From: Bythopirellula sp.
GTDB lineage: Bacteria > Planctomycetota > Planctomycetia > Pirellulales > Lacipirellulaceae
Length of the DNA: 64,000 nucleotides
Direction of reading: 5' to 3'
Assembly: GCA_965216565.1 (NCBI GenBank)
Contig: OZ244170.1
Span: 2,144,001 to 2,208,000 of the forward strand
Positions 21,948 to 39,646 of this stretch are shown here, piece after piece (position 1 is the stretch's first letter; the number at the start of each line of letters is the position of its first letter). The notes beneath the pieces were generated by a model. That model was not told the DNA's origin and made no database searches. It saw only the letters and a list, made by a program, of their open reading frames with translations. The translations under genes and the position numbers were made by a program.

Positions 21948-22478
21948 TTACGGTTCGGCTGGAGCGTCGTCGTCGTCGGCAACGGCGATAGGAATCGCGA
22001 TCGCGGCACCGATAGCAGCGGCACACATGATTGGATGGTCGGCACACCACTGAGCAGCCGATGTGAACGGCCCAGGTGTGTTTCCGTACTGACCACGCAC
22101 AACGTCTTGGCCAACAACCATGGTCACGCCTTGCTTGGCTACCGGAGGTGCTGTGTTAGGAGCCCACACACGGTAGGTTCCTTCCTGGCCTCGTGAAGCT
22201 ACGCTGTAGACTCCACCACGCAAGTTAGGCACGGAGAAGTTACCTTTCTGGTCGGTATGCACGCGGGCGATTTCGCCTTCGTGACTGGCCAGAGTTACAA
22301 GTGCCATCGGTTGCGTCTTGCCTTGTGCGTCGACAACCTGTCCGACAAGTACATTGCCAGCCTGCATCACAACGTCGCTGGGTGCGATAGCAACTTCCGC
22401 ACTAGCCAATGCTGGCGACAGCAACATACTCAGGCATGCCAATCCGGCAGCCCAGTTGTTCAAAATACTAATCTTCAT
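21948..22478 (-). CDS. Secreted carboxypeptidase-regulatory-like (beta-sandwich) protein with C-terminal membrane anchor, paralogue 1
   Basis: Signal peptide, LVGQVVDAQG, TDQKGNF, RVWAPNTAPP, AIAIPIAV-DDDD tail. Confidence 0.75.
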   Translation of the reverse strand: MKISILNNWAAGLACLSMLLSPALASAEVAIAPSDVVMQAGNVLVGQVVDAQGKTQPMALVTLASHEGEIARVHTDQKGNFSVPNLRGGVYSVASRGQEGTYRVWAPNTAPPVAKQGVTMVVGQDVVRGQYGNTPGPFTSAAQWCADHPIMCAAAIGAAIAIPIAVADDDDAPAEP

Positions 22479-22800: not shown

Positions 22801-23610
22801 CTAAGCCCGACCTCTCCATTTCTTGAAGTGCCGCACAAGCTGTTTCTCAGGACTGGGAACCGAGTCTACCAACCGCTGCGAAAGCTGCCCCGGAGGCGCT
22901 CCGCGCTGGATGTCTCTCAAATAGTGAACCAACGCCCGATGAGCGGGGAGCGGGCCGTGCAACATAAAATGGACCCATGCCCAGGCGAATCGGTATTCTT
23001 CCCCACCCATGTCTTCCAGCTCTGCGCACTCCTCTAGCGAATCGACACCCCGCACCATGCCGAACCGTAAGTTCCAGCGTAGCTTAGTCATATGGGGATG
23101 AGAAAATGCTCGCTCGGATTCGGGCATTTCGAAATACTCCGCCAACCCCTCATCGAGCCATAAAGGCACCATCGGCAAGTTGGCGTGCAACAAGGCGTGG
23201 GTACATTCGTGGCGGAGATCCACCGCGAGTTCTGGCTGCCAAAATGCAAAAACGCTACCTCGGCCGGACCGTTGAACAAACAGTGCCCGCCGGTACGGCA
23301 CTCGTGGATAGAGCTCGCCAAGCGTCCGACGATAGGAATCTTCGTTGTCGAACAGATAAACATCGATCGACTGCCTGGCTGGCGGTACGGCCAGCGTTCG
23401 TTGTAGCTCCTGCTCAAGTGACGAAAGATCTTGAAACAACGGCACCATGTTTTCCATGGGAAACGTTGCGTGGAACTGAAACGGCCCGTGGCTGCGATGA
23501 TCGGCCCATTGGGTAGCGGCGCTCGCTGGCAATCCAGCAAACGTCCATTGCGAAGCAACCGCTGCACTTCCCCAAGCCAAAAAGTTTCGCCGCGAGAGCA
23601 AATCCATCAA
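22801..23610 (-). CDS. Tat-signal DUF1570-like gluzincin metallopeptidase
   Basis: SRRNFL, HECTH (HExxH), WLDEGLAEY. Confidence 0.75.
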   Translation of the reverse strand: MMDLLSRRNFLAWGSAAVASQWTFAGLPASAATQWADHRSHGPFQFHATFPMENMVPLFQDLSSLEQELQRTLAVPPARQSIDVYLFDNEDSYRRTLGELYPRVPYRRALFVQRSGRGSVFAFWQPELAVDLRHECTHALLHANLPMVPLWLDEGLAEYFEMPESERAFSHPHMTKLRWNLRFGMVRGVDSLEECAELEDMGGEEYRFAWAWVHFMLHGPLPAHRALVHYLRDIQRGAPPGQLSQRLVDSVPSPEKQLVRHFKKWRGRA

Positions 23611-24404
23611 CTGGCTTCCCTCCTGGAGAATACACTTTTCCAGCCACCACGCTTTTTAATTGTGCGTCGACCCGCCGGCACTCGCTGCTTGCGAGCCACG
23701 AGGCCAGGGTAAATCGAACAAAGATCTATGGCCGTCTGTTGATCGGTAAGCTCCGCCACACGGTCGAAGGCACGACGCATTAGCGGACGTCGCGATTTCA
23801 TGCCATGAGCATCGGTTGAGATAAAGTGAACCAGTCCCTCGGAAAGCATGCACTCGCTGAGTTGCTGCGAGGAGGAACCAAAAGTCCCCATCAGGCTACC
23901 GGCGGTAACTTGCATCAAACAGCCAGCGTCGACGAGAGGACCAAGTATTTCGCAATCGCGAAGGATGCCTCGATTTCTTTCGGGATGCGACAAAATGCCA
24001 ATCAAACCCTGGCGGCTGAGTGCATCGAGAATTCCTTCCAAAGGAAAATAGAGTTCGTGTGGAAGTTCCAGCAGCACGTGGCCGCCCAGGTCGCCCAGGG
24101 AAAGCACTTCGCCGCTGGCCAGCTTTTCGAGCATACCGTCTTCGATCCGAACATCTGCCCCTGGCATGACTTCTAAAGGGATCCCCTGTTCGCGAAGTAC
24201 GTCTTGCATCTGCTTCACGAGGCGTCGGATATCATCCCCTTGGTTGTGAGCAAAGTTTCCGAGCTGATGCGGAGTGACGATCACCGTTTGCGTGCCGTCG
24301 GAAACCGCCATCCTCGCCATCTCCAACGACTCCTGCCAATCGGCAGCGCCATCGTCGATGCCGGGCAGCATATGGCAATGTATGTCTACGAAACCACCAT
24401 CCAT
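23607..24404 (-). CDS. cpsB: PHP-family protein-tyrosine phosphatase (CpsB/CapC/YwqE-like)
   Basis: DIHCHMLPGIDDG, TPH, SHPERN, TDAH. Confidence 0.92.
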   Translation of the reverse strand: MDGGFVDIHCHMLPGIDDGAADWQESLEMARMAVSDGTQTVIVTPHQLGNFAHNQGDDIRRLVKQMQDVLREQGIPLEVMPGADVRIEDGMLEKLASGEVLSLGDLGGHVLLELPHELYFPLEGILDALSRQGLIGILSHPERNRGILRDCEILGPLVDAGCLMQVTAGSLMGTFGSSSQQLSECMLSEGLVHFISTDAHGMKSRRPLMRRAFDRVAELTDQQTAIDLCSIYPGLVARKQRVPAGRRTIKKRGGWKSVFSRREAS

Positions 24405-24515
24405 GGCACGTTCCAGGCTTGCTCTTGGCGAATCCGCTCTGAGCGTTTTGAGAAGAAGTTATTGGTAGAAAAGCGGGCGGGATTGTAGCGGAAGGCTTGT
24501 GAGCGTCAATACAGA

Positions 24516-25622
24516 TCAAAGCTCCAGTGGGTAGTCCATCACCCGGTCCACGCCCGATGCTGTCACTACGAAATTCTCTTCCAGACGAATTCCATGTCGC
24601 AAGGACTCGTGATACAGCCCGGGCTCAGCGGTAAAAAAGTCGCCTGCGGTGAAAGTATCGTCCCAGTGGGGATTCAAATGTGGACCTTCGTGCGGTGCTA
24701 GCCCCACGCCATGGCCCAAATGGTGATTGAACTCAGCCGGCGCTGCGTCATCCAAGAATGCTTGCACTTCCTCGAAAACTTGCTTGCAACTCACACCCGG
24801 CTGCACCCGCGATTCAATCATCGGGAACACTTCGGATAGCTTTTCCCACGCCTGATACTGCTCGTATGTTGGCGCGCCACCCACGGCAATTGTGCGGGCG
24901 TTATCGGAATAGTAGCCACGGAAGCCGACACCCAAGTCGAGAATGTACAGTTCACCCGCTTCTGCTCGGCGATCTCGCGGCAAGCCACCCCGTGCGTTAC
25001 AGCGGAAATCTTGCCCAAAATAGGTGAGTGCTTCGCCTAGCTCGGAAACAGCGGTGGCATGAAGTTCGTTGTAGACCTCCAGCTCATTGATCCCTGGTTG
25101 AATGATTTCGCGGGCACATTCGTACATTTTCGCATTGGCGTCATTTGCTCTTGCCAGCATCCGCAACTCGTCGGCATGCTTGTGGCGACGCAATTGAAAG
25201 ATAGTCGGCTCGACATTTTCCACTTCACCACCAAACTCAGCCAGCAATCTTGGACCAAGCTGCGACCATTCGCCTCCAACCTTGTTGGGACGAGAATTTA
25301 GCGTGCCTAGCAATACCTCGTTGCTCGCTGAGCGTTGCTCGTCGCGCATTGTCGAATGCCATTTTTCCTCGTACGGTACCACTTCATCAGCGGCTACTCG
25401 GAGAGAAACCTTCCGCGAAGGCAATACCAAGGTCACCTGGCCCTGGTTATCCATCATGGCCGCAGGAGCGAGCAACGGCCCCACATAGGCACCGGTGAGC
25501 CACTGCACAGACTCGCTGCGGGTGAGCACAACCAGTTCGAGCTTCTTGTCCCGCATGTGCTGCAACAACCGGCTTTGCCGATCGCGGCAACCTTGGATAT
25601 CTACTTGAAAAGGATCATCCAC
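24516..25622 (-). CDS. M24 Xaa-Pro peptidase family protein
   Basis: ILDLG, YYSDNART, HHLGHGVGLAPHE, TAEPG, IRLEE. Confidence 0.9.
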   Translation of the reverse strand: MDDPFQVDIQGCRDRQSRLLQHMRDKKLELVVLTRSESVQWLTGAYVGPLLAPAAMMDNQGQVTLVLPSRKVSLRVAADEVVPYEEKWHSTMRDEQRSASNEVLLGTLNSRPNKVGGEWSQLGPRLLAEFGGEVENVEPTIFQLRRHKHADELRMLARANDANAKMYECAREIIQPGINELEVYNELHATAVSELGEALTYFGQDFRCNARGGLPRDRRAEAGELYILDLGVGFRGYYSDNARTIAVGGAPTYEQYQAWEKLSEVFPMIESRVQPGVSCKQVFEEVQAFLDDAAPAEFNHHLGHGVGLAPHEGPHLNPHWDDTFTAGDFFTAEPGLYHESLRHGIRLEENFVVTASGVDRVMDYPLEL

Positions 25623-25806
25623 GGACGCTGAACTCCCGTAAGTCTTAGGTGCTAGGTGATGCTATTCCGCACTGCCAGACCATCGTAAGACGCTCCGGTT
25701 ATCGCAGCTAGGGCGTCTCGTTTTAGGACTGTCATCTCATTGTGAGACCGATTCAGTCGCGAGTCAGCTTGGCACCGGCACTAGCATAGCACCTCGGCTA
25801 TTGACG

Positions 25807-25819
25807 TAACCTATTGATA
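25807..25819 (-). promoter_or_regulatory. IHF-binding site candidate
   Basis: Minus strand TATCAA-TAGG-TTA, an exact match to WATCAANNNNTTR, lying between putative enhancer sites and the sigma54 box. Confidence 0.55.
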
Positions 25820-25860
25820 TGTAGGGAGATAAGCCAAGAAATCCCGCCATTGCCGACAAG

Positions 25861-25876
25861 TGGCATGGCTCTTGCA
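25861..25876 (+). promoter_or_regulatory. Sigma54 (-24/-12) promoter of csrA paralogue 1
   Basis: TGGCATG-GCTC-TTGCA with correct GG-N10-GC spacing. Confidence 0.75.
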
Positions 25877-25968
25877 TTTAAAGAATACGTCGCAACACGC
25901 GATGGCTACTCACAAACCGAGTCACGCCTTTTCAAGTTTAGTTTCGTTAAGAGGAAGGGAACCAAAGG

Positions 25969-26265
25969 ATGTTGGTATTAAGTCGCAAGAATGGCGAACG
26001 AATTCACATTGGTGACGACATTTTCATCGAGGTGCGTCGAGTCGCAGGTAGTCGTGTTACTTTGGCAGTCAATGCTCCCAGAGATCTCCGCGTGCTCCGT
26101 GGTGAGCTTCTTGAAGCGGCGAAGAGCTTTGATGATTCGACTCCACAGTCTGGATCAGCAGTCGTCGAACAACCAGTTACTCCGACAAGTTCGGAAACCA
26201 TAATCGTTACACAAGAGGCACTCCCTCCGTCTGAACCTCTCTCTGGACCGCCCGCTACGCTGTAG
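25969..26265 (+). CDS. csrA: Carbon storage regulator CsrA paralogue 1 with Pro/Ser/Thr-rich tail
   Basis: MLVLSRKNGERIHIGDDI..VTLAVNAPRDLRVLRGEL. Confidence 0.92.
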   Translation: MLVLSRKNGERIHIGDDIFIEVRRVAGSRVTLAVNAPRDLRVLRGELLEAAKSFDDSTPQSGSAVVEQPVTPTSSETIIVTQEALPPSEPLSGPPATL

Positions 26266-26394
26266 TTGGTTTTCGAGAGAGAGTGCTTCGGAGTTGGAAC
26301 AGAAAATAGGCAGGAACCTAGAGAGGCAGTTTAGTCGCCCAGCTACACTCGGCATTTCACCCGTCTTCCAATCCCCCATCTGTCGGTGTAGTAA

Positions 26395-27498
26395 TCAGCT
26401 CGTAGTTTGTCGGACCACTTGGTTCAACACTTCTGCGAGCTGCAGGGCGACTTTTTCATGCGCTAATAGTATTGGATGGTGCAATAGAATTGTTGAACGG
26501 CTCAACCGGTCGCTGACAGGTAAAGGCACAGGTTTCTCGCAACGCCTTGCGCCCCGACTTGTGAATCCGCGGAAGCCCCCATCAATGGGAACGTTTCTCT
26601 CGTGGAGCCGTTTAAGTAATTCATCTCTCCTCTCGGGCTTATCTTCTGCCGGCAAGTACGACCAAGCAAATTTGTAGAAGGCACTCAGGCCGCCGTTTGG
26701 CTTTGCGACTGGCTGCAGGCAATCTGCCAGCTCTGCTGTTTTCTGACGAATGAGTTCTATACGTTGCCGGCGGACTTCGTTTCGTTCATCCAGCTTGCGA
26801 AGTTGCGGCCTGAGCACTGCGGCTTGCAATTCGCTCAAGGGATAAGCCTGATTCCCTTGCTCAGAATAGATCTTCATTCGCTGAATGATTCCAGCGTTGT
26901 TCGAGAGAACAGCACCACCTCGTCCTGCTGTAAGCAACTTGCTACCGCCGAAACTCAAGACTCCGACGTCTCCCCAAGTGCCAACCTTTTGCCCCTGCTG
27001 CAAAGCCCCCGGTTGTTGGCATGCATCTTCCACAACCAGCCAACCCCTCGAACGAGCTAACGACATAATCCGTGGCATGTCGGCAAGTCCGCCGTGCAAG
27101 TGCGAAACGATAACAGCCTTAATATCATCGTGAGAAATATCTGCTAGCGAGTCTGCGTCGAGCGACCAACTCTCTTTGCAGATATCCACCAAAACCGGTC
27201 GAGCAGCCAACGCATCTACTGCACGGAAATTTCCAGGAAAGTCGTAACCAGCAAGAGCGACACCCTCTCCAGGGGCAATTCCGCAACCTCGAAGTGCCAG
27301 TTCGACTCCCACGGTTCCCGAACTACACAACGCAGCATGTTCACAATCGAAGTACTGGCTCAATTGTTCGATCAATTCTTCGCAATTAGGACCGTGGTAT
27401 TGGCCCCAACTTCCACTTTCGTACGATTCGTCCAGTGCTGCCTTTACTTCCGAATCGGCAACAGGCCAGAAAAACGCTTCTAACTTTGTTAGCGACAT
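26395..27498 (-). CDS. DegT/DnrJ/EryC1/StrS PLP aminotransferase
   Basis: SSGTVGVELAL, VEDACQ, SFGGSKLLTAGRGG. Confidence 0.9.
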   Translation of the reverse strand: MSLTKLEAFFWPVADSEVKAALDESYESGSWGQYHGPNCEELIEQLSQYFDCEHAALCSSGTVGVELALRGCGIAPGEGVALAGYDFPGNFRAVDALAARPVLVDICKESWSLDADSLADISHDDIKAVIVSHLHGGLADMPRIMSLARSRGWLVVEDACQQPGALQQGQKVGTWGDVGVLSFGGSKLLTAGRGGAVLSNNAGIIQRMKIYSEQGNQAYPLSELQAAVLRPQLRKLDERNEVRRQRIELIRQKTAELADCLQPVAKPNGGLSAFYKFAWSYLPAEDKPERRDELLKRLHERNVPIDGGFRGFTSRGARRCEKPVPLPVSDRLSRSTILLHHPILLAHEKVALQLAEVLNQVVRQTTS

Positions 27499-31191: not shown

Positions 31192-34100
31192 ATGGACAGG
31201 GCAGTTCATTCCAGTGACTCCTCACCTGACAGTCGAAGCGATTTCTATATCGTGGGTGTTGGCGCATCGGCCGGTGGATTAGAAGCCATCGAATCCATGT
31301 TCCAAGCGATGCCGAAAGACGTCGGCATGGCCTTCGTACTGGTCCAGCATCTCTCGCCTGACTTTAAGAGCCTCATGCTAGAGTTGTTGTCTCGCGACAC
31401 GACGATGCCTATCCACCGCGTGGAAGATGGCATGCAAGTCGAGCCAAACTCTATCTACCTAATTCCTGCCAACCAAGAGATGATCATCTCTCACGGGCTA
31501 TTACGGCTGAAGGAGAAAGACCCAAATGTATCGCTCTCTCTGCCGATAGATCACTTTCTAGAATCGTTGGCAATCGACGTAGGCCCGCGCAGCATTGGTG
31601 TGATTCTCTCGGGCACAGGAAGCGACGGCTCACGCGGAATCGCAGAAGTCCACAAGGCCGGAGGATTGGTGATCGCCCAATCGGTGGAAAGTGCAAAGTT
31701 CGATGGCATGCCCCGAAGTGCGATTGATACCAATTTAGTTGATGTCATTGTCGAACCCGAAAAGATTCCTGATGTACTGACGCGTTACGTGACGCATCCC
31801 TACCGGTCGCTGCTCCAGCAGCATCCCATGGACGAGTCGAGCATGGAGCACATATTTCGTTTGCTCCTGGAACGTCATCGCATCGACTTCAATTACTATA
31901 AGCCCGGTACCATCAATCGACGGATCGAAAGGCGGATTCAACTCAATCATCGTTCGAACATCGAAGATTATGTTCACTTTTTGGAGGAGTCGCCAAGCGA
32001 ACTCGATGAGTTGCACAAAGACTTGCTGATAGGTGTAACCAGCATGTTCCGCGACCCAGAGGCTTTCGACAGCTTAAAAAACACGCTACTGAACTATCTT
32101 GATGAGTCTCACGGTACTCGCAATGAATTCCGTGCCTGGGTTTCTGCCGCCGGCACGGGCGAGGAAGCCTATTCAATCGCTATCATTTTGGACGAATGCC
32201 TGCGAGAGCTCGGCTTGAGACTCCCTGTGAAAATTTTCGCAACCGATGTCAATCAAGCATCGCTCGATACAGCTCAGGCCGGAGTCTATAGCAAAGATGA
32301 GCTGGAAGAGATTAGTCCCGAGCGATTGGAGCGATACTTCAGCGAAGTCGAGGGGGGATACCAGATAGAGCAAGACATCCGCCAGATGATAGTCTTTGCG
32401 CCCCACAATTTGGTGAAAGATACCCCCTTCACTAGGCTTGATCTGATCTCATGCCGGAACTTTTTGATTTACTTGCGGCCCTTGGCCCAGAAAAAAATCA
32501 TTTCGCTTTTTCATTTCGGGCTGAAGACGGGCGGATTGCTCTTCCTAGGTGCCAGCGAGACGACGGGCGATCTGGCGGACGAATTTGAGCCTTTGATCGA
32601 CCGGTGGAATATCTACCGCAAGCGGAGAGACGTTCACATCTCACAGGTGATTGATGGCGTGCTGAATGCCGACATCAATAAACCGAAAGCCTCCGGCCAA
32701 GACACTATAGTACCGCGAATTCCCAGGGAACCCGATCTGCAGTCAACGTACGACGAGTTACTCGGCGAGTACATGCCTGCAGCCATTCTTGTAGATCACA
32801 ACTGCGAGATGCTCCACATGTTTGGAGGAGCAGGGGAGTTTCTCACAATTCGTGACGGACGTCCTAGCAACAGATTGCTCGACATGGTGGACGGCAATCT
32901 AAAACTGGCCATCACTGGGGGAATTCAATCGGCTGAAAAGAAATCGAAACGGGTGCGTTATCACTCTGTGATGGCAAATACTGCCAGCGGAACTCGGCCG
33001 CTTGAAATAGAGATAATTCCAGTCGGACAGAAAGAGCATTTTGCAAAATATCTTATCACGTTTAACGATGTAGAAGAATCGAAACTGCCTGCAGCTGGCC
33101 CGAGCGAAAATCTGGATGTCTCTGAGGTTACTCGCGACCAAATCGAAGGGCTCGAACAAGATCTTCGTCGAGCCAAACAAAGTTTGCGATCCACCGTCGA
33201 GGAACTAGAGACCAGCAACGAAGAACTTCAGGCGACTAATGAAGAACTGACCGCATCGAACGAAGAATTACAAAGCACGAACGAAGAACTTCATTCTGTT
33301 AACGAAGAACTTTACACAGTCAACGCCGAGTTCCAGAAAAAGATTCTTGATCTGACCGAGATGACGCATGACATGGAGAATTTGCTGGAAAGCACTGAAG
33401 TGCATACGCTTTTTCTCGATGAGAACCTATGCGTTCGGAAGTTCACCCCCATGATGGCGGAAGTTTTCAATCTGGTAACTCGCGATATAGGGCGGAGGAT
33501 TTCATCCTTCTCCTATAATCTCGACTGCGAAGACCTCACCGGTCGAGCTTCTGAAGTACTCGAAACCGGAGAGCTATTCGAACAACGGGTCAATGAAAAT
33601 GAGGACCAACAGTTTTTGTTGAGGATGCTGCCTTATCGAGCTGAGAATCGCATCAGCGGTGTCGTCCTGACACTGGTAGATATCACCACGCTAGCCGAAG
33701 CAGAAGAAGATGCTCTTCACGAACGCGAACGCTTCCAGCGCGCCATCCTGGCCAATCGCGATGGCACCTGGGACTGGCCCGATGTCGCCAACGAAAATAT
33801 GTGGTGGTCCGACACGTGCTACCAATTACTCGGTTACGAACCTGGAGAATTTCCTGCGACCTATTCTCAGTGGCTGAAGAATGTACATCCGGAAGATCGA
33901 GCCCTCATTGAGCAGACGAGCGTTCCTTCCCAAGAAAAATGCTTTGTCGAGTTGCATCGCCAGTTTGAATACCGAATGCAACACAAATCGGGCGAGTACC
34001 GTTGGTATGAGCATCGAGCCATCATTGACTTTGGCGATGACGGCTCGCCCCTGCGAATGACGGGCACTGTTGGTGACATTCACGATCGCAAAATATCAGA

Positions 34101-35259
34101 ATTCCACAGCGTGGAAGAAATTCATCGCCGGGACAATTTCCTAGCAATGCTTTCTCATGAGCTCCGCAATCCCATGGGGGCTGTCCTGAGCGCGATCAAC
34201 TCAGCCAAATCCCCTAACGAGAGTCCTGCGGATGGCCAGGCTGAACTTCATTCCCTTGAAACAGCAAAAGACGCCATGCAAATCATTGGACGTCAAACGA
34301 AATATATGGCAAGGCTGTTGGACGATTTGCTCGATGTTGCCCGATTCGGCCAAAATCGAATTGAATTCCGCCAAGAGGTTGTCGATCTCAAGCTATTAGC
34401 GGAAGAAGTCATGGAGGCTTTTTCACACGAGCTTCGAGATAAAGACATGGAACTGCACATAGATTTTGGCAGCGAACCTATCTTTGTGGTTGCAGACCCA
34501 GCTCGGATGAAGCAGGCCCAAATCAATCTCCTCAGCAACGCTGCGAAGTACACGCCCGAGGGAGGCGACATCTGGTACGAAATCTCGCAGCAAGCTAACG
34601 AAGCCATCATTTCGATCCGTGACAATGGCGATGGCATTCCTCCGAAAATGCTGGATTCGATCTTTGAGCTATTTGTTCAATCGGAATCTAATCTTGCCCA
34701 TGCGTCAGGCGGAATCGGCGTAGGGCTTTCCCTGGCACGAAGCATTGTGGAGGCGCATTACGGAACGCTCACTGCCGAAAGTGAAGGGGAGGGACAGGGA
34801 AGTACGTTCACAATTCGTCTGCCGGTAACCGTGAATACCAAAAAGGCGGTCGTACCTGTCCCGCACATCTCTTTCGACGATCGCAGCTTATTACTGGTAG
34901 AAGACAATGACGATGCACGCATGATGCTCGCGAAAACGCTACGCATGCAAGGGTTCGTCGTTCACGAGGCTAGCGATGGCTTTTCGGCACTCGAAAAATT
35001 TAAGAATGTCAGCCCGGAAGTTGCCATCGTCGATATTGGACTGCCCGTGATGGATGGCTACCAATTTGCCAGAGCTGTACGTCAGCTTGAATTGGACTGG
35101 GATTTTGTTCTCATTGCATTGACCGGGTACGGTCAAGATTCCGACCGGGAACAAGCCCTCAAGTCTGGCTTCGATGCCCATCTGGTCAAACCGCTCGACC
35201 CTGTCGAACTCTATCGAACCCTGGCCCAAAATCTCTCACCTGCACACATCCAGCAGTAA
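31192..35259 (+). CDS. CheB-CheR-coiled coil-PAS hybrid histidine kinase with C-terminal receiver
   Basis: CheB GASAGG/VQH/GSDG; CheR GEEAYS, ATDV, SCRN; NEEL heptads; PAS domains; SHELRNP, NAAKY, DNGDG, GIGVGL; REC VED..DIGLP..KP. Confidence 0.95.
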   Translation: MDRAVHSSDSSPDSRSDFYIVGVGASAGGLEAIESMFQAMPKDVGMAFVLVQHLSPDFKSLMLELLSRDTTMPIHRVEDGMQVEPNSIYLIPANQEMIISHGLLRLKEKDPNVSLSLPIDHFLESLAIDVGPRSIGVILSGTGSDGSRGIAEVHKAGGLVIAQSVESAKFDGMPRSAIDTNLVDVIVEPEKIPDVLTRYVTHPYRSLLQQHPMDESSMEHIFRLLLERHRIDFNYYKPGTINRRIERRIQLNHRSNIEDYVHFLEESPSELDELHKDLLIGVTSMFRDPEAFDSLKNTLLNYLDESHGTRNEFRAWVSAAGTGEEAYSIAIILDECLRELGLRLPVKIFATDVNQASLDTAQAGVYSKDELEEISPERLERYFSEVEGGYQIEQDIRQMIVFAPHNLVKDTPFTRLDLISCRNFLIYLRPLAQKKIISLFHFGLKTGGLLFLGASETTGDLADEFEPLIDRWNIYRKRRDVHISQVIDGVLNADINKPKASGQDTIVPRIPREPDLQSTYDELLGEYMPAAILVDHNCEMLHMFGGAGEFLTIRDGRPSNRLLDMVDGNLKLAITGGIQSAEKKSKRVRYHSVMANTASGTRPLEIEIIPVGQKEHFAKYLITFNDVEESKLPAAGPSENLDVSEVTRDQIEGLEQDLRRAKQSLRSTVEELETSNEELQATNEELTASNEELQSTNEELHSVNEELYTVNAEFQKKILDLTEMTHDMENLLESTEVHTLFLDENLCVRKFTPMMAEVFNLVTRDIGRRISSFSYNLDCEDLTGRASEVLETGELFEQRVNENEDQQFLLRMLPYRAENRISGVVLTLVDITTLAEAEEDALHERERFQRAILANRDGTWDWPDVANENMWWSDTCYQLLGYEPGEFPATYSQWLKNVHPEDRALIEQTSVPSQEKCFVELHRQFEYRMQHKSGEYRWYEHRAIIDFGDDGSPLRMTGTVGDIHDRKISEFHSVEEIHRRDNFLAMLSHELRNPMGAVLSAINSAKSPNESPADGQAELHSLETAKDAMQIIGRQTKYMARLLDDLLDVARFGQNRIEFRQEVVDLKLLAEEVMEAFSHELRDKDMELHIDFGSEPIFVVADPARMKQAQINLLSNAAKYTPEGGDIWYEISQQANEAIISIRDNGDGIPPKMLDSIFELFVQSESNLAHASGGIGVGLSLARSIVEAHYGTLTAESEGEGQGSTFTIRLPVTVNTKKAVVPVPHISFDDRSLLLVEDNDDARMMLAKTLRMQGFVVHEASDGFSALEKFKNVSPEVAIVDIGLPVMDGYQFARAVRQLELDWDFVLIALTGYGQDSDREQALKSGFDAHLVKPLDPVELYRTLAQNLSPAHIQQ
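33199..33330 (+). repeat. 21-bp (heptad) coding repeat NEELxxx
   Basis: EELETS NEELQAT NEELTAS NEELQST NEELHSV NEELYTV; repeated AACGAAGAA. Confidence 0.8.
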
Positions 35260-35409
35260 TTCGCCATCCCTAGACCACTCCGGTCTGTTAACTTTTGCAC
35301 CTACTTGACGTGCAATTTGCATTCAGTAAGTTTTTCCAGACGAGGATGGAAAAACATCTCCAGATGATCTCTAAATGACAGCATTCTTGATTAGCAACAG
35401 GGAAGTTAG

Positions 35410-35652
35410 ATGGCTGGTTCTCACACCAACTCCGGAAACGAAGAGGAATCGAACTCTACCGAGGCTCAAATTCGCATCCGCGAACAGCTTCATTCGGTGC
35501 AAATAGGGCTCGATCTACTAAGAAGAGAGATGTTAGCAGGCAAGTTTCGTAGTGCCGAAGACACCTATTCCACGATTGTTCAGTGCCTAGGAAAGATCTC
35601 GAATGATGATTTGCTAGCAGGCAGCAATTCTGACGACTCAAACGACTCCTAA
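35410..35652 (+). CDS. Small protein homologous to the DHp-like middle domain of the adjacent CsrA-REC fusion
   Basis: Ungapped similarity IREQLHSVQIGLDLLRREMLAGKFRSAEDTY vs VRNKLNSLSIALHLCKQEMVAGHFDDAQQTF; SD AGGGA upstream. Confidence 0.7.
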   Translation: MAGSHTNSGNEEESNSTEAQIRIREQLHSVQIGLDLLRREMLAGKFRSAEDTYSTIVQCLGKISNDDLLAGSNSDDSNDS

Positions 35653-35921
35653 GGAATCTTCGCAACCGGCCAAAAATAAGCCGCAAAGTGATGTTGACTG
35701 TGCAAATAGACTTGGAATAAATTGATGCACGTTCGAAGTTTGCCGACCAACAATCCACTATGATTTTCGGAGAAAATATCGCGTCGGGTTCATACCCTAG
35801 GCCGATTGGAAATTGGTCTACTAAAGCATGGAAGCTTGAATTAGTTCGCTGTCGAAAGATCGAATCTCCAAGGATGGAGCTCGCGAATTTGCGATGAAAC
35901 CTCAAGGAGGAAACTTATTCC

Positions 35922-36686
35922 ATGCTAGTCCTAAGCCGCAAGGAAAACCAGAAGATTCGTTTTCCTGATCTCGATGTGACAGTTGAAATTCTCCGCGTAA
36001 AAGGCTCCGCCGTTCGAGTTGGAGTCGACGCCCCCATGGAAATCAGAATCCTTCGTGATGAAATCGAAGAGTTTGAGTCCAAACCTAACCCCCAGCAACA
36101 TATCGTTCGGTTGCCCCAGTCCGAGCGGCATGAAGTCCGCAACAAGCTCAATTCGCTGAGCATTGCACTTCATCTCTGCAAGCAAGAAATGGTCGCCGGG
36201 CACTTCGACGACGCTCAACAAACTTTCGAAAAGGTCTTCGAACAGATCCAAAATATCGTACAGGACGAAAAAACGCCTCAGGAACCAATCCCGGCTGTCG
36301 AGAATCCCCAGAAAACGGCACTTCTTGTCGAAGACGAAGACAATGAGCGCGAAATGCTGGCCGGGTTCCTCCGTCTTCACGGGTACGAAGTGGTGACCGC
36401 ATCTAATGGCTTAGAAGCGATCGACTACTTAGAATCCAACTCCAAGCCATCACTCGTTTTGATGGACATGCGGATGCCGCGTTGCGATGGGCCTACCACC
36501 ATTCGCCGTATTCGCGAAAATCCAGAACTGGAAGCCCTAAAGATCTTCGCGATTAGCGGATCTTCACCCGAAGAGAACCAGTTTGGAAATCTGGATGAAA
36601 GCATCGACCAGTGGTTCATGAAGCCACTCGATCCCAGAAATCTTGTCGCTGCTATGGCCGATTCGCTCGAGCCGACAGCAGCCTGA
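35922..36686 (+). CDS. CsrA - HisKA/DHp-like - receiver domain fusion protein
   Basis: MLVLSRK..VRVGVDAP..ILRDEI (CsrA); RHEVRNKLNSL (H-box-like); LVEDE..LMDMRMP..ISG..MKP (REC); SD AGGAGG. Confidence 0.88.
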   Translation: MLVLSRKENQKIRFPDLDVTVEILRVKGSAVRVGVDAPMEIRILRDEIEEFESKPNPQQHIVRLPQSERHEVRNKLNSLSIALHLCKQEMVAGHFDDAQQTFEKVFEQIQNIVQDEKTPQEPIPAVENPQKTALLVEDEDNEREMLAGFLRLHGYEVVTASNGLEAIDYLESNSKPSLVLMDMRMPRCDGPTTIRRIRENPELEALKIFAISGSSPEENQFGNLDESIDQWFMKPLDPRNLVAAMADSLEPTAA

Positions 36687-36831
36687 CTCCTACACGCTAC
36701 ATTGCTCTTGTAAAGGATTGATGCGGTCGAGCAATTGTTCGAAGTCGCAAGGATTGTGACCAAGCCGCGGGGAGTAGTGTACATGTCCGGAGGAGAGTCA
36801 GGCATTGCTTGGCTCTCCTCCGTTTTTTTTT
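36687..36831 (+). ncRNA. Candidate CsrA-binding structured RNA (3' UTR or sRNA)
   Basis: Two hairpins each carrying AAGGATTG, a closing stem and a terminator. Confidence 0.45.
36788..36831 (+). terminator. Strong intrinsic terminator
   Basis: CGGAGGAGAGTCAGGC / GCTTGGCTCTCCTCCG stem followed by T9. Confidence 0.9.
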
Positions 36832-36863
36832 GACAGGCGGCTCTCCTCAAGACTCTGTCTTCT

Positions 36864-37457
36864 CTACGGCTCAGCATTCACGTCATCGTCGTCGCCATTT
36901 TCCACAGCAATGGGGATCGCAATTGCCGCAGCAATCAGCCCACCCAGTATAAGTCGTTGCTGAGCTACCCGACTTCTACCACCATAGCCTCTGCCACCAC
37001 CGCACACGCCGCTGCCACAGACGGGCGAACCGCAATGCTGTCCCAGCACGGCAGAATCGTCTGGCACTATCAGCATTCCCGCAGTCGCGTGGGGTGGTGC
37101 TGTCTTGGCGGCCCAAGCGCGGACCAACTGCACGTGTTCACCCACTTGTAACTGGTAAGTGCTTCCGACAAGTCCTGTGACGGCGAATCGCCCCTCCGCA
37201 TCGGTCTTTACTTCCAGCGATTGCTGACCGCTGTACAGGCGAATAGACACCTTGGCCTGAGGCTGGCCGCTACTGCCAACAACCTGTCCGCGAAGGACGC
37301 CTCCATGCTCGAGTTCCACATCCGTCACGCGAATGGAATTCTCGCCTGCTGAAAAGTCCATGGCCGCCCCCTGAACCAATACAGGCTGGACCATCATCGC
37401 TAGCATTGCTAACCAGACAGCACTTTGAGAAAAGCACTGCTTCGATTGAATAGACAT
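36864..37457 (-). CDS. Secreted carboxypeptidase-regulatory-like protein with C-terminal membrane anchor, paralogue 2
   Basis: LRGQVVGSSG, TDAEGRF, RAWAAKTAPP, AIAIPIAV-ENG-DDDD-VNAEP. Confidence 0.75.
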   Translation of the reverse strand: MSIQSKQCFSQSAVWLAMLAMMVQPVLVQGAAMDFSAGENSIRVTDVELEHGGVLRGQVVGSSGQPQAKVSIRLYSGQQSLEVKTDAEGRFAVTGLVGSTYQLQVGEHVQLVRAWAAKTAPPHATAGMLIVPDDSAVLGQHCGSPVCGSGVCGGGRGYGGRSRVAQQRLILGGLIAAAIAIPIAVENGDDDDVNAEP

Positions 37458-37815
37458 CCCCCCACACTCCTATCGCTTGCCCCTGAACGTAATAGAAATA
37501 CCCTGCACACCTTTGTAATGTGAAGGACGGTTTCTCTCCCTCCGCAATCGCATGAATTATCGTCACAATTCGCAAGCCTTCATCAGCATACCCAGCCGGA
37601 AGAGTCGAAAAACTTTACCAAGCGGCTATTGTTTGTCGCAATTGTGCGAAGGGAGCAGGTCTTCGCGCTCGAATTCTGCCTTCCGCTGCTAGCGGAAAAT
37701 TTACAATCTTCTGGCAAATGTACACCATTCACTGAACACGCCGCCAACGCTGGCAACTCCCTAAGATGTTAGCCAGCCGGTAAATACGCCGCACCACACT
37801 TTTCTGCCGCACCCT

Positions 37816-37831
37816 TGGCACGCCGTATGCG
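37816..37831 (+). promoter_or_regulatory. Sigma54 (-24/-12) promoter of csrA paralogue 3
   Basis: TGGCACG-CCGT-ATGCG with correct spacing. Confidence 0.7.
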
Positions 37832-37905
37832 TATCACAAGGCAGGTGTCAATCGGCACTGTCTTTTCTAAACCGGAACTTGTCTCACCAACAAAGGGAGT
37901 GTGTC

Positions 37906-38295
37906 ATGTTGGTTCTTACCAGGAAGCAGAACGAAAAAATTCGCATTGGCGATTCTATCACCATCACGGTATTGCGAATGAAAGGCAAAGCGGTTCGACT
38001 GGGCATCGAAGCGCCACACGACATTAATGTGATTCGCGGAGAACTCTGCTTCGATCTTGGCGAGGAATCGACCGATTCCCTACCAGATGTTGCAGACCAA
38101 ACTGATGAAAGGCTCGTCCCGCCAAAGAGCAAGCCACTCATTAGCAGCAACTCGAACACCACCAGTGCGGTAGCAAAAGAAGAAACCTCACATTGGCCCG
38201 TCGAGTCGAGCCAAGCAAGCCACCCGCCGACGGCTAACTGCACGGTACCCTTGGGAGTCTCGCCACTCCGCGCGATGCTCGAAGCTCGCACTTAG
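37906..38295 (+). CDS. csrA: Carbon storage regulator CsrA paralogue 3 with long disordered tail
   Basis: MLVLTRKQNEKIRIGDSITITV..VRLGIEAPHDINVIRGEL; SD AGGGAG before ATG 37906. Confidence 0.92.
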   Translation: MLVLTRKQNEKIRIGDSITITVLRMKGKAVRLGIEAPHDINVIRGELCFDLGEESTDSLPDVADQTDERLVPPKSKPLISSNSNTTSAVAKEETSHWPVESSQASHPPTANCTVPLGVSPLRAMLEART

Positions 38296-38329
38296 GCTGG
38301 ACGTCGTTTGCTGTCACGCATCCGCAGTT

Positions 38330-39646
38330 TTAGTAACTGCCGGACAAAGCCCACTCTTTCCGCCGACGGCAAGAGTGGGCCAAGAGAAAGCTGCACACCA
38401 GCACCACGCTCGTGGGTTCGGGGACAGTCGTCGCCAACGATTGGCTCCCCGAACCAGAACCCGTGTAGTTTTGTTGGTACGTGAGAAAATCAAGTCCATC
38501 CACTCGGCCGTCGACGTTCGAATCGCCCGTGGCCCAGGCCCCGCCCCCCAAAGCGTAGCCAGCCTGCCAGACGAGTAGATCATCGTGATCTACCGAGCCA
38601 TCGAGATTGGCATCGCCATAGTCAGTATCAAGTATCCCGTGCACGAAAGCATCTAAATCCGAATTGGCTGCCTGCGGAGTGGCATCGATCACTCCGTCGT
38701 CGAATAGGTCGTAGTTATCGACAACTTCAGGCACGCTCTTTCCATGGGCATCGAGCAATAGCTCAAGGTCTAAGTTATCGATTGAACTATCGAAATTCAG
38801 ATCCCCCGGTGCTGCAGACTCGATCGTGCTGCGTAGTAGTGCCCCGGGCACTAAGCTCTGAATCCAGGGGATATACGACGACGTCTTGATGGCCCAACTC
38901 CGCTTGCCATAGTCGACGGGGTTCTCTCCCGAACCAGCACGTGTCAGTGCGCCCAACACCCACTGGTCGTCACTCGTCTTGAGCAGCACCGGGCCACCGC
39001 TGTCGCCGTTATCGGAAATACCTTCTCGAGCAATAGCTCCACTTCCTGGGGCATCGAAATCGTATTTCAAGTCGGTTCCGATAATTGTATCAACGCGGTT
39101 CTGTGCACGATGATAAGTTCCAATGCCTGGGGTGTTATCTCCAGCAGGACCAAAGTATCCGTACCCGCCCACCTCAAGAATCTTGTTCACCTCGTCATTG
39201 ATGTCGTTCAGCGGCACATCGATCCAGTCGGTTGGCTCGGTGGATAGCTTTAGCAACGCTATATCACCGCTGGAGTGACTGTGTACTTCACTAACCGAGA
39301 ACGTCCCGCCATAGTTGGGCAGAAACACTGACAGGTCCGCAGGGCCCGTTAGCTCGTCATCGTCACTGACCACATGCTCGACCGTCAGCATCCACTTCTC
39401 GTGAATTAGCACACCGGACCCAAACTCCTCGGTCACTCCATTGTTCACCTTGCCGACGTTCGTCATCAGCCCATCGTAGCTAGTCCGCCACTGGGGATCG
39501 CCCGTTGGCCAGTCAGCCCTCCAGAACACAGCCGAACTCTCGCCACAAAGATTCACAGCCAGCAAACAGGCAAATAGGGCAAGATGACAATTCGACCGAA
39601 TCTTAACGATCGTATTTCGCAGATGTTGCCGCATTGGGAGTGGCAT
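38330..39646 (-). CDS. Trypsin-like (S1) serine protease with dockerin-like repeats and PEP-CTERM sorting signal
   Basis: LTVEH, DIALL, GDSGGP triad; GDLNFD/GDANLDG/GDSNVDG; VPEPTS + hydrophobic stretch + RRRK. Confidence 0.85.
   Translation of the reverse strand: MPLPMRQHLRNTIVKIRSNCHLALFACLLAVNLCGESSAVFWRADWPTGDPQWRTSYDGLMTNVGKVNNGVTEEFGSGVLIHEKWMLTVEHVVSDDDELTGPADLSVFLPNYGGTFSVSEVHSHSSGDIALLKLSTEPTDWIDVPLNDINDEVNKILEVGGYGYFGPAGDNTPGIGTYHRAQNRVDTIIGTDLKYDFDAPGSGAIAREGISDNGDSGGPVLLKTSDDQWVLGALTRAGSGENPVDYGKRSWAIKTSSYIPWIQSLVPGALLRSTIESAAPGDLNFDSSIDNLDLELLLDAHGKSVPEVVDNYDLFDDGVIDATPQAANSDLDAFVHGILDTDYGDANLDGSVDHDDLLVWQAGYALGGGAWATGDSNVDGRVDGLDFLTYQQNYTGSGSGSQSLATTVPEPTSVVLVCSFLLAHSCRRRKEWALSGSY

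What the first reader, a model, noticed from the sequence alone, without database searches (positions are those of the whole stretch)
31192..38295. Candidate phosphorelay-controlled Csr system: CheBR hybrid kinase, pseudo-DHp, CsrA-DHp-REC fusion, GGA-loop RNA and a further csrA
Seen: a CheB-CheR-PAS-HisKA-HATPase-REC kinase is followed, co-directionally, by an 80-aa DHp-like protein and by a protein fusing three parts. These are an intact CsrA domain (MLVLSRK, and ILRDE keeping the Arg equivalent to E. coli R44), an H-box-like helix pair (RHEVRNKLNSL; compare SHELRNP in the kinase) with no ATP-binding domain, and a receiver with intact D/S/K residues. A structured GGA-loop RNA and another csrA follow. 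Established: CsrA is normally controlled by sponge sRNAs (CsrB/RsmYZ) or FliW, and hybrid kinases need a His phosphotransfer partner (HPt, ChpT, Spo0B). No HPt, MCP or che genes are in the window. Inference: the fusion is a response regulator whose output is RNA binding, and its DHp His relays phosphate from the kinase receiver to its own receiver. I know of no characterised system like this.
Basis: partly seen in the sequence, partly recalled or inferred. Interest (0 to 1): 0.88.

Follow-up and report, generated by a model that had tools for sequence, protein, structure and literature searches.

The report
Receiver-fused CsrA with partner kinase
A planctomycete gene pair encodes a sensor kinase and a protein that joins the RNA-binding regulator CsrA to a histidine-bearing relay helix and a receiver domain, which suggests that here CsrA is switched directly by phosphorylation, a form of control not yet described for this well-studied regulator.

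Summary
The genes are real. The kinase at 31192-35259 is CheB-CheR-PAS-HisKA-HATPase-REC. The 254-aa protein at 35922-36686 is CsrA, then a helical hairpin, then REC. The hairpin carries an H-box. Its His and the Asn four residues later are present in 81 of 81 genomic relatives and in 148 and 144 of 150 database representatives. It aligns with the partner kinases' phospho-His helix at 95% probability. The 80-aa ORF is a His-less paralog of this hairpin, found only in the window and its two closest relatives. A hybrid kinase lies within 8 kb of the fusion in 29 of 38 fully flanked loci across Planctomycetota. This genome has no MCP, and its only Hpt domain sits inside another kinase. Its only two Hpt-less hybrid kinases are the CheB-CheR ones. 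A His-Asp-His-Asp relay ending in a phospho-switched CsrA is therefore the best reading, but it is inferred. The "GGA-loop RNA" is a non-conserved 3'UTR hairpin plus terminator, and the further csrA is not syntenic. The conserved GGA signal lies in the fusion's own 5' leader. REC-CsrA regulators were already catalogued in 2006. I found no characterised member.

The parts
31192..35259 (+). Hybrid sensor kinase: CheB-CheR-coiled coil-PAS_10-PAS_3-HisKA-HATPase_c-REC (1355 aa). Phospho-His is H989 (nt 34156-34158) and the receiver Asp is D1281 (nt 35032-35034).
   Evidence: ORF; Pfam domains all above cut-off; residue positions.
33199..33324 (+). Six tandem heptads of the form EExx[A/S/T][S/T/V] (aa 670-710) inside the kinase. 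This is a candidate internal methyl-accepting helix for the fused CheR and CheB domains.
   Evidence: six matches in the window kinase. Of 80 homologous coiled-coil hits, 61 have 6 heptads, 18 have 5 and 1 has 4. The own genome has no MCPsignal hit. The likeness to the chemoreceptor methylation consensus is recalled, not tested.
35410..35652 (+). 80-aa His-less paralog of the fusion's hairpin (pseudo-DHp).
   Evidence: hhalign against A3 gives 96% over 55 columns. It is conserved in the window, L013 and L014, with I/L at the His position and E/D at the Asn position. It was found nowhere else in the 82 loci or the own genome.
35694..35723 (+). Promoter-like site upstream of the fusion's leader (weak, consensus match only).
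   Evidence: one site found, against 2.0 expected from shuffles, so it is not significant on its own.
35866..35879 (+). Leader hairpin CUCCA-AGGA-UGGAG, a CsrA-site-like GGA in a loop.
   Evidence: Sequence; fold. GGA falls in a predicted leader hairpin loop in 38 of 80 family leaders, against 13% of 600 control leaders.
35906..35911 (+). Two GGA triplets in the Shine-Dalgarno region of the fusion gene.
   Evidence: Sequence. GGA lies within -25..-1 in 78 of 80 family leaders, against 39% of 2625 control leaders. Two or more occur in 37 of 80, against 6%.
35922..36686 (+). CsrA-DHp-REC fusion (254 aa). CsrA is nt 35922-36071, the hairpin is nt 36117-36266 with H70 at 36129-36131, and REC is nt 36312-36668 with D182 at 36465-36467.
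   Evidence: Pfam; AF2 models; CsrA fold; REC fold; residue conservation; coordinates.
36744..36760 (+). 3'UTR hairpin GUCGCAA-GGA-UUGUGAC. It is local and not conserved.
   Evidence: Fold. Downstream regions of relatives are neither alike nor GGA-enriched.
36788..36831 (+). Intrinsic terminator of the fusion gene: a 16-bp stem followed by a T run.
37906..38295 (+). Stand-alone csrA with a long low-complexity tail. It is a neighbour, not part of the conserved module.
   Evidence: Pfam CsrA 77.5 bits. An extra csrA hit lies in the flanks of only 1 of 80 related loci (L050).

Best explanation
The core is a two-gene signalling module conserved in Planctomycetota. A soluble CheB-CheR-PAS hybrid histidine kinase senses a signal. 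It probably adapts by methylating its own Glu-Glu heptad helix.

The proposed phosphate path is as follows. The kinase autophosphorylates on H989 and passes the phosphate to its own receiver, D1281. The phosphate then moves to H70 on the DHp-like hairpin of the dimeric CsrA-DHp-REC protein, and from there to that protein's own receiver, D182. The state of the receiver then changes how the N-terminal CsrA dimer binds GGA-containing mRNA leaders. These leaders include the fusion's own, so the system is autoregulated.

In this lineage a His-less copy of the hairpin (80 aa) probably modulates the relay by pairing with the fusion's hairpin.

Shown here: the domain content, the residue conservation, the synteny, the lack of Hpt and MCP, and the GGA-rich leaders. 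Inferred: every phosphotransfer step, the dimer, RNA binding and its dependence on phosphorylation, and the role of the 80-aa protein.
For: Domains and folds:
- Pfam finds CsrA and REC in the fusion.
- The N-terminal model matches only CsrA/RsmA/RsmE structures at ranks 1-14 (E 1e-3 to 7e-2; for 13 of the 14, rmsd 1.8-2.3 A over 38-50 columns; rank 1, 5dmb_D, has rmsd 13.6 A over 74 columns).
- The REC domain matches DivK at Z 19.4.

Conserved chemistry in the window plus 80 relatives:
- CsrA L2, R6 and R45 are present in 81/81.
- Hairpin H70 and N74 are present in 81/81.
- Receiver D138, D182 and K234 are present in 81/81, and S/T212 in 81/81.

In 150 representatives clustered at 50% identity, His is present in 148, Asn at +4 in 144, and an acid at +1 in only 64. 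In HisKA the +1 acid is needed only for autokinase activity and the +4 Thr/Asn only for phosphatase activity (abstract of PMC3510030). This pattern suits a DHp that has no ATPase domain but still reacts with a receiver.

DHp likeness:
- HisKA is the top Pfam family for the hairpin (26 of 81 members at E<=1; the next family has 7).
- hhalign against 52 partner-kinase DHp segments gives 95.3%, with His aligned on His.
- AF2 predicts helices 66-91 and 95-115 at pLDDT 90-97.

Coupling to the kinase:
- Of 38 loci with at least 7 kb on both sides, 26 have a CheB-CheR-HK-REC kinase and 3 more have an HK-REC kinase.
- In 35 of the 47 loci with a CheB-CheR-HK-REC kinase, the kinase lies directly upstream on the same strand.

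A relay is needed:
- The genome's one Hpt domain lies inside a PAS-HK-REC-Hpt kinase.
- Of 26 HATPase_c hits, only three share a frame with a C-terminal REC. These are that kinase and two CheB-CheR kinases.
- The genome has exactly two H-box fusions.
- The fusion's REC is closest to those two kinase RECs, apart from the RECs of the other fusions.

Autoregulation: the GGA enrichment in the leaders.
Against: - The HisKA scores are below Pfam's cut-off (15.9 bits against 26.9 for the window's hairpin).
- hhalign covers helix 1 only (31 columns).
- A profile search of solved structures found no kinase at a meaningful E-value.
- The hairpin's structural matches are generic (best Z 8.8; DesK 7.7, CusS 7.1).
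- Seven of 38 fully flanked loci show no kinase within 8 kb.
- The invariant Asn fits a pure phosphatase role equally well.
- Hybrid kinases can use their receiver as a sink or a regulator without any relay (general knowledge).
- Hpt was sought only with Pfam PF01627 at E<=0.001, in a genome estimated to be 94% complete.
- Domain order is unusual for a response regulator, with the output at the N terminus.
- The leader controls come from one genome only.
Confidence: 0.45

Rival explanations
1. This is an ordinary two-step pathway. The kinase's own DHp His phosphorylates the fusion's receiver directly, and the kinase's receiver is a sink or an internal regulator. The fusion's hairpin is a dimerisation module that also acts as a built-in phosphatase for its own receiver. 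The output is still CsrA RNA binding.
For: - The Thr/Asn at H+4 is the residue needed specifically for HisKA phosphatase activity (abstract of PMC3510030). It is near-invariant here (81/81; 144/150).
- The kinase REC and the fusion REC are each other's nearest relatives outside their own groups, so both could dock on the kinase's DHp.
- The first-helix stretch after the acidic pocket reads ARMMLAKTLRMQGF in the kinase REC and EREMLAGFLRLHGY in the fusion REC.
Against: - The His itself is kept in 81/81 and 148/150, which a phosphatase or dimerisation role does not obviously require.
- The His-less paralog lost His and Asn together.
- The only Hpt-less hybrid kinases in the genome are the two that sit near H-box fusions.
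Confidence: 0.3
2. The hairpin is a kinase-binding element. It pairs with the kinase's DHp to form a mixed helical bundle, tethering the fusion to its kinase or letting the kinase's ATPase domain phosphorylate H70 in trans. The 80-aa protein competes for the same site.
For: - The hairpin's first helix resembles the partner kinases' H-box helix (95.3%).
- A His-less free copy is encoded between the two genes in three genomes.
Against: - CsrA domains are dimers (established for the family), which would bring two hairpins of the fusion together.
- The likeness to the kinase covers 31 columns only.
- No interaction could be modelled.
Confidence: 0.08
3. RNA is the input, not the output. The order CsrA-DHp-REC mimics sensor-DHp-REC of a hybrid kinase that has lost its ATPase domain. 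Occupancy of the CsrA domain by GGA RNA would then gate phosphate flow through H70 and D182, feeding back on the kinase.
For: - The domain order puts CsrA where kinases carry their sensor.
- The fusion REC and the kinase REC are related.
Against: - No further downstream regulator is conserved next to the pair.
- GGA sites sit in the fusion's own leader, as in CsrA-type translational control.
Confidence: 0.07
4. The CsrA domain has lost RNA binding and serves only as a dimerisation scaffold for a phosphotransfer protein.
For: The Pfam score of the fusion's CsrA domain (54.6 bits) is lower than that of the stand-alone csrA next door (77.5 bits).
Against: - L2, R6 and the Arg equivalent to E. coli R44 are kept in 81/81, and E47 in 80/81. 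The role of these residues is recalled from the E. coli literature.
- The fold matches RNA-bound RsmE and CsrA structures.
Confidence: 0.05

Closest known systems
CsrA/RsmA control by sponge RNAs (CsrB/C, RsmX/Y/Z) and by protein antagonists (FliW, CesT)
   Same: It has the same RNA-binding domain, with the fold and key residues kept. GGA motifs lie in hairpin loops and over the Shine-Dalgarno site of a target leader. The genome also holds one canonical FliW-csrA pair.
   Different: Here a receiver and an H-box hairpin are part of the same polypeptide. Control would therefore be covalent and act within the same polypeptide, not by sequestration. No sponge RNA family was found in 35200-38400.
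Multi-step phosphorelays with a DHp-type His-phosphotransferase (Spo0F-Spo0B-Spo0A; CckA-ChpT-CtrA)
   Same: A hybrid kinase or separate receiver is followed by a His on a helical hairpin with no ATPase activity, and then by a terminal receiver. The layout matches.
   Different: Spo0B and ChpT carry a degenerate ATPase-like domain (recalled). The fusion has no room for one, since only about 15 residues separate the hairpin from REC. The transferase is also fused to the terminal regulator. Pfam SPOB_a matches only 3 of 81 hairpins at E<=1.
RNA-binding response regulators of the ANTAR class (AmiR, NasR/NasT, EutV), and the REC-CsrA class listed in Galperin's 2006 census
   Same: In both, a receiver domain governs an RNA-binding output. 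The CsrA output class is named in PMC2222644, citing Galperin 2006.
   Different: ANTAR acts on terminator hairpins and sits C-terminal to REC (recalled). I could not read the census itself. I therefore cannot say whether it noted the H-box hairpin or the kinase partner.
BarA/UvrY (GacS/GacA) control of the Csr system
   Same: A two-component pathway sets CsrA activity.
   Different: In that system the regulator activates transcription of sponge RNAs (established knowledge). Here the phosphate would end on the CsrA protein itself.
CheB/CheR-fusion sensor kinases (database name 'two-component system, chemotaxis family, CheB/CheR fusion protein')
   Same: The domain set is the same, and so is the conserved Glu-Glu heptad helix. 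Earlier notes of this scan describe the same family in other phyla.
   Different: In Planctomycetota this kinase is paired with the CsrA fusion. The genome has no MCP at all.

Membership tests
CsrA/RsmA (PF02599) | Profile match above the curated cut-off | tested here: met
   54.6 bits against a cut-off of 27, residues 1-50. NCBIfam csrA gives 51.4 bits, below its equivalog cut-off of 70.1.
CsrA/RsmA (PF02599) | CsrA fold | tested here: met
   Foldseek ranks 1-14 are all CsrA/RsmA/RsmE chains. For 13 of the 14, rmsd is 1.8-2.3 A over 38-50 columns, with TM by target 0.66-0.75. Rank 1 (5dmb_D) has rmsd 13.6 A over 74 columns and TM by target 0.57.
CsrA/RsmA (PF02599) | RNA-contact residues (Leu2, Leu4, Arg6 and the Arg equivalent to E. 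coli R44; list recalled) | tested here: met
   L2 81/81, L4 76/81, R6 81/81, R45 81/81.
CsrA/RsmA (PF02599) | Interleaved homodimer that binds GGA RNA | not testable with these tools
No binding assay was possible.
Response regulator receiver (PF00072) | Profile match, fold, and the Asp/Asp/Ser-Thr/Lys active-site set | tested here: met
   73.6 bits. Z 19.4 to DivK. D138, D182 and K234 81/81; S212 78 Ser plus 3 Thr.
HisKA-type DHp domain (PF00512) | Profile match above the curated cut-off | tested here: not met
   The window's hairpin scores 15.9 bits against 26.9. 26 of 81 members match at E<=1, best E 6.5e-5. One database relative carries a precomputed HisKA hit (P0068).
HisKA-type DHp domain (PF00512) | H-box motif H-E/D-x-x-T/N (PMC3510030 abstract) | tested here: met
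   His 81/81 and 148/150. Asn 81/81 and 144/150. The +1 acid is relaxed (48/81 and 64/150). His aligns with the kinase phospho-His.
HisKA-type DHp domain (PF00512) | Helical hairpin that dimerises into a four-helix bundle | tested here: inconclusive
   The hairpin is predicted with high confidence. The dimer could not be modelled, and the structural matches are generic.
Spo0B/ChpT-type His-phosphotransferases | DHp plus a degenerate ATPase-like domain (recalled) | tested here: not met
   No such domain is present. The hairpin ends at residue 115 and REC starts at 131.
Spo0B/ChpT-type His-phosphotransferases | Accepts phosphate from one receiver and passes it to another | not testable with these tools
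   This needs in vitro phosphotransfer.
Hpt domain (PF01627) | Profile match | tested here: not met
   No Hpt hit in the fusion or the 80-aa protein at E<=0.01.
CheB/CheR-fusion hybrid kinases | CheB_methylest, CheR, PAS_10 and the kinase core in one protein | tested here: met
   All domains are above their cut-offs.

The most novel reading that the evidence does not exclude
Planctomycetes run a chemotaxis-free sensory pathway that adapts by methylating its own kinase and ends in translation control, not at a motor or a promoter. In this reading a CsrA dimer is switched by phosphorylation of a fused receiver. The phosphate is delivered through a bare DHp hairpin that acts as a built-in His-phosphotransferase. 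In some lineages a His-less free hairpin tunes the relay as a decoy.
Probability: 0.35. Interest if true: 0.85.

Novelty: new variant of a known kind. Interest (0 to 1): 0.72.

Why it matters
Every known way of controlling CsrA works by sequestration, either by sponge RNAs or by the proteins FliW and CesT. A CsrA with its own receiver domain would be the first case of direct phospho-control. It would link two-component signalling to translation without a transcription factor or a small RNA.

The family is large and occurs in four orders of Planctomycetota. At least 150 clusters at 50% identity hold the CsrA-hairpin unit. 245 relatives were found in one-genome-per-species collections. This phylum carries many CsrA paralogs, 12 in this genome, and almost nothing is known of its regulation.

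The module also gives a testable output for the widespread but unstudied CheB/CheR-fusion kinases. It offers a minimal natural His-phosphotransfer domain as well.

Tried and rejected
- **Complex prediction.** No dimer or kinase-receiver docking was modelled.
- **Profile of the hairpin against solved structures.** The best hits were designed helical proteins (E 0.002). A bacteriophytochrome kinase appeared at E about 1 on the H-box only.
- **Structure searches with the full model.** These returned only receiver domains.
- **Structure search with the 1-120 model.** VIA-align gave only generic hairpin matches for residues 61-120.
- **Rfam.** No match in 35200-38400 at E<=1.
- **Folds of non-coding stretches.** The fusion's leader (z -1.28) and the stretch upstream of the second csrA (z -0.97) are no more stable than shuffles. 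The 3'UTR's z of -4.18 probably owes much to the 16-bp terminator stem; this was not tested separately.
- **Longer fused forms.** A search with residues 1-130 scored 152 candidates and none reached E<=0.001. This is weak evidence.
- **Natural experiment with the His-less third paralog.** I searched 301 genomes of the phylum with L094:7867-8667. Only 8 genomes matched at E<=1e-20 and none was a close ortholog. Only 8 candidates per genome were scored. The run gives neither a distribution nor a test.
- **Expression.** No RNA holder was listed for 35200-38400.
- **Literature.** Searches found no paper on a natural CsrA-receiver fusion in the held library. Passages of PMC13443453 found with six search terms did not mention one, and its supplements were not read. 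Searches were poorly targeted and added nothing. Galperin 2006 and 2010 are not held.
- **Earlier findings of this scan.** Look-ups by place and by sequence returned nothing.

Full report
**What is in the sequence**

The stretch 31192-38295 holds four plus-strand genes and one minus-strand gene.

- The first ORF (31192-35259, 1355 aa) matches CheB_methylest, CheR_N/CheR, PAS_10, PAS_3, HisKA, HATPase_c and Response_reg, all above Pfam's cut-offs. Its phospho-accepting His is H989 in SHELRNP. Its receiver Asp is D1281.
- Next comes an 80-aa ORF (35410-35652) with no family match.
- The 254-aa ORF (35922-36686) has a CsrA domain at residues 1-50 and a receiver at 134-245.
- A minus-strand ORF (36864-37457) encodes a CarboxypepD_reg-domain protein whose N terminus looks, by eye, like a signal peptide.
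- Last is a stand-alone csrA (ATG at 37906, ends 38295).

None of the 45 window ORFs scanned (7, 38) has an Hpt, MCP, CheA or CheW domain.

**The fusion protein**

AlphaFold2 with an 81-sequence alignment gives mean pLDDT 87. It predicts the following:
- beta strands at 11-36;
- two long helices, 66-91 and 95-115, at pLDDT 90-97;
- a receiver fold at 131-249.

A separate model of residues 1-120 matches only CsrA, RsmA and RsmE structures at Foldseek ranks 1-14. For 13 of the 14, rmsd is 1.8-2.3 A over 38-50 columns. Rank 1 (5dmb_D) has rmsd 13.6 A over 74 columns. The receiver matches DivK at Z 19.4.

The helix pair gives only generic structural matches. The best Z is 8.8, and the DesK and CusS DHp regions score 7.7 and 7.1 among many unrelated hairpins. 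The fold alone therefore does not identify it.

**The H-box**

I collected 80 related loci from one-genome-per-species collections. 245 relatives were confirmed and the best 80 kept. By record title, 78 of the 80 are planctomycete lineages: Pirellulales, Planctomycetales, Gemmatales and Isosphaerales.

In the 81 aligned proteins:

| Part | Residues | Conservation |
|---|---|---|
| Hairpin | H70, N74 | 81/81 each |
| Hairpin | R73 | 70/81 |
| Receiver | D138, D182, K234 | 81/81 each |
| Receiver | position 212 | 78 Ser, 3 Thr |
| CsrA | L2, R6, R45 | 81/81 each |

An independent profile search used the CsrA-hairpin part against 1.84 billion representatives. It found 53 proteins at E<=1e-30, and all of the top 150 cover the whole profile. 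Among those 150, His is kept in 148, Asn at +4 in 144, and an acid at +1 in only 64.

In HisKA kinases the +1 acid is needed only for autophosphorylation, and the +4 Thr/Asn only for phosphatase activity. I read the abstract of PMC3510030. The pattern here is therefore what a DHp without an ATPase domain would keep if it still reacted with a receiver.

Sequence-level tests of DHp membership are mixed.
- HisKA is the most frequent Pfam match to the hairpin (26 of 81 at E<=1; the next family has 7). No score reaches the cut-off, and the window's own segment gets 15.9 bits against 26.9.
- A profile-profile comparison with 52 DHp segments of the neighbouring kinases gives 95.3% probability over 31 columns, with His on His.
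- A profile search of solved structures finds no kinase at a meaningful E-value.

I therefore call it DHp-like with a true H-box. I do not call it a proven HisKA member.

**The 80-aa protein**

It aligns with the hairpin profile at 96% probability over 55 columns. A profile scan of all ORFs in 82 loci, the window and the whole genome finds such a free copy only in the window and its two closest relatives. In each case it lies between the kinase and the fusion.

Its core is well conserved among the three genomes. All three have Ile or Leu in place of His and Glu or Asp in place of Asn. It is a real, lineage-restricted, catalytically dead paralog.

**Gene linkage**

I ran tblastn with the window's domains against the 80 loci.

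| Neighbour within the flanks | All 80 loci | 38 loci with >=7 kb on both sides |
|---|---|---|
| CheB-CheR-HK-REC kinase | 47 | 26 |
| HK-REC kinase, no CheB-CheR seen | 9 | 3 |
| Kinase cut by the locus edge | 3 | 2 |
| None | 21 (many on short contigs) | 7 |

In 35 of the 47 loci the kinase lies directly upstream on the same strand. Every neighbouring kinase whose end could be seen is a hybrid.

The second csrA is not part of this. Only 1 of 80 loci has an extra csrA in its flanks.

**The genome as a whole**

The window lies in a single 5.2-Mb contig, estimated 94% complete.

- It has 12 CsrA-domain genes. Three are receiver fusions.
- It has one FliW, next to one csrA.
- It has no MCPsignal match.
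- It has one Hpt domain, which sits at the end of a PAS-HisKA-HATPase-REC-Hpt kinase.
- Of its 26 HATPase_c and 45 receiver matches, only three pairs share a reading frame with the receiver at the C terminus. These are the Hpt-bearing kinase and two CheB-CheR kinases.
- It has exactly three CheB-CheR genes, all next to CsrA fusions.
- It has exactly two fusions with an H-box.
- The third fusion lacks the H-box and lies beside an orthodox kinase and a single-domain receiver. This fits the relay idea, but it is one case.
- Outside the fusions, the fusion's receiver is most similar to the receivers of the two CheB-CheR kinases.

**RNA features**

- It has a 7-bp hairpin with a GGA loop (36744-36760).
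- An AAGGAUUG motif lies upstream of that hairpin.
- A 16-bp terminator stem with a T run follows.
- It has no Rfam match.
- The regions downstream of the fusion in relatives are unrelated and not GGA-rich (2.88 against 2.29 per 160 nt).

I read this stretch as the fusion's 3'UTR and terminator.

The conserved signal is upstream. The window's leader has a CUCCA-AGGA-UGGAG hairpin (35866-35879) and two GGA triplets over the Shine-Dalgarno site.

| Measure | 80 family leaders | Control leaders from the own genome |
|---|---|---|
| GGA within 25 nt of the start | 78 | 39% of 2625 |
| Two or more GGA within 25 nt | 37 | 6% of 2625 |
| GGA in a predicted hairpin loop | 38 | 13% of 600 |

The controls come from one genome only, which is a limitation. 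This is the layout of CsrA-repressed leaders and suggests autoregulation, or control by a paralog.

**The kinase**

Between CheR and PAS_10 lie six heptads of the form EExx[A/S/T][S/T/V] (residues 670-710). They are almost invariant. Of 80 homologous segments, 61 have six, 18 have five and 1 has four.

They resemble the chemoreceptor methylation consensus as I recall it. With no MCP in the genome, they are the obvious substrate for the fused CheR and CheB domains. Earlier notes of this scan reached the same idea for this kinase family in other phyla. I treat those notes as leads only.

**Mechanism**

I put the four-step relay at 0.45: H989 to D1281 to H70 to D182, ending in a phospho-switched CsrA.
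- Evidence for: the invariant His, the obligate hybrid partner, the missing Hpt, and the two-to-two match of Hpt-less hybrid kinases and H-box fusions.
- Evidence against: the sub-threshold HisKA scores, the lack of any modelled dimer or docking, the seven unlinked loci, and the fact that the invariant Asn fits a phosphatase role equally well.

The main rival, at 0.30, is direct transfer from the kinase His to D182, with the hairpin acting as dimeriser and phosphatase. In both readings the output is RNA binding by the CsrA domain. That output is inferred from conserved residues and fold. It was not shown.

**Novelty**

Response regulators with CsrA outputs are named in PMC2222644, citing Galperin 2006 (section 7 and the reference list seen). 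I could not read the census itself.

Databases call these proteins 'response regulator' or 'carbon storage regulator CsrA'. Six searches of the held library found no study of such a protein. Passages found with six search terms in a 2026 survey of CsrA diversity did not mention one either; its supplements were not read.

I did not find any of the following in print:
- the H-box hairpin;
- the conserved pairing with CheB-CheR hybrid kinases;
- the GGA-rich leaders;
- the His-less paralog.

I rate this a new variant of a known kind, of high interest to people who work on Csr or on two-component systems.

Noticed in passing
window 33199-33324 (kinase aa 670-710): Six near-invariant Glu-Glu heptads lie between the CheR and PAS domains. 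The genome has three CheB-CheR genes but no MCPsignal match. The kinase may methylate itself.
   Followed up: partly
L106 1053-3792 (G000:C1:1487053-1489792): A csrA gene lies directly upstream of the genome's only Hpt-bearing kinase (PAS-HisKA-HATPase-REC-Hpt, BarA-like layout). This is a second physical link between csrA and phosphorelay genes.
   Followed up: partly
L094 5446-8667 (G000:C1:3365446-3368667): A third CsrA-REC fusion (266 aa) lacks the H-box. It lies convergent to an orthodox, non-hybrid kinase and a single-domain receiver.
   Followed up: partly
L093 9321-19046 (G000:C1:3354321-3364046): The second H-box fusion sits beside two tandem CheB-CheR kinases. The first has no receiver and the second has one. 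Tandem pairs of this kind recur in many related loci.
   Followed up: partly
window 40903-63070 and 23610-27498: A large polysaccharide synthesis and export cluster lies next to the module. It includes Wzy_C, Wzz/ParA-type, Poly_export, UDP-glucose dehydrogenase, epimerases, aminotransferases and glycosyltransferases, plus CpsB and DegT upstream. These genes are possible targets.
   Followed up: no
window 25969-26262: A third CsrA-domain gene lies in the window (98 aa, Pfam 66.6 bits). The genome has 12 CsrA-domain genes but only one FliW.
   Followed up: partly
window 38330-39646 (-): This is a trypsin-like protease with a dockerin-type repeat. Its C-terminal VPEP...hydrophobic...RRRK tail looks like a PEP-CTERM sorting signal; I recognised the motif by eye and did not test it.
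   Followed up: no
window 21951-22478 (-) and 36864-37457 (-): Two small paralogous ORFs each have a CarboxypepD_reg domain at similar positions (E about 1e-8 each).
   Followed up: no
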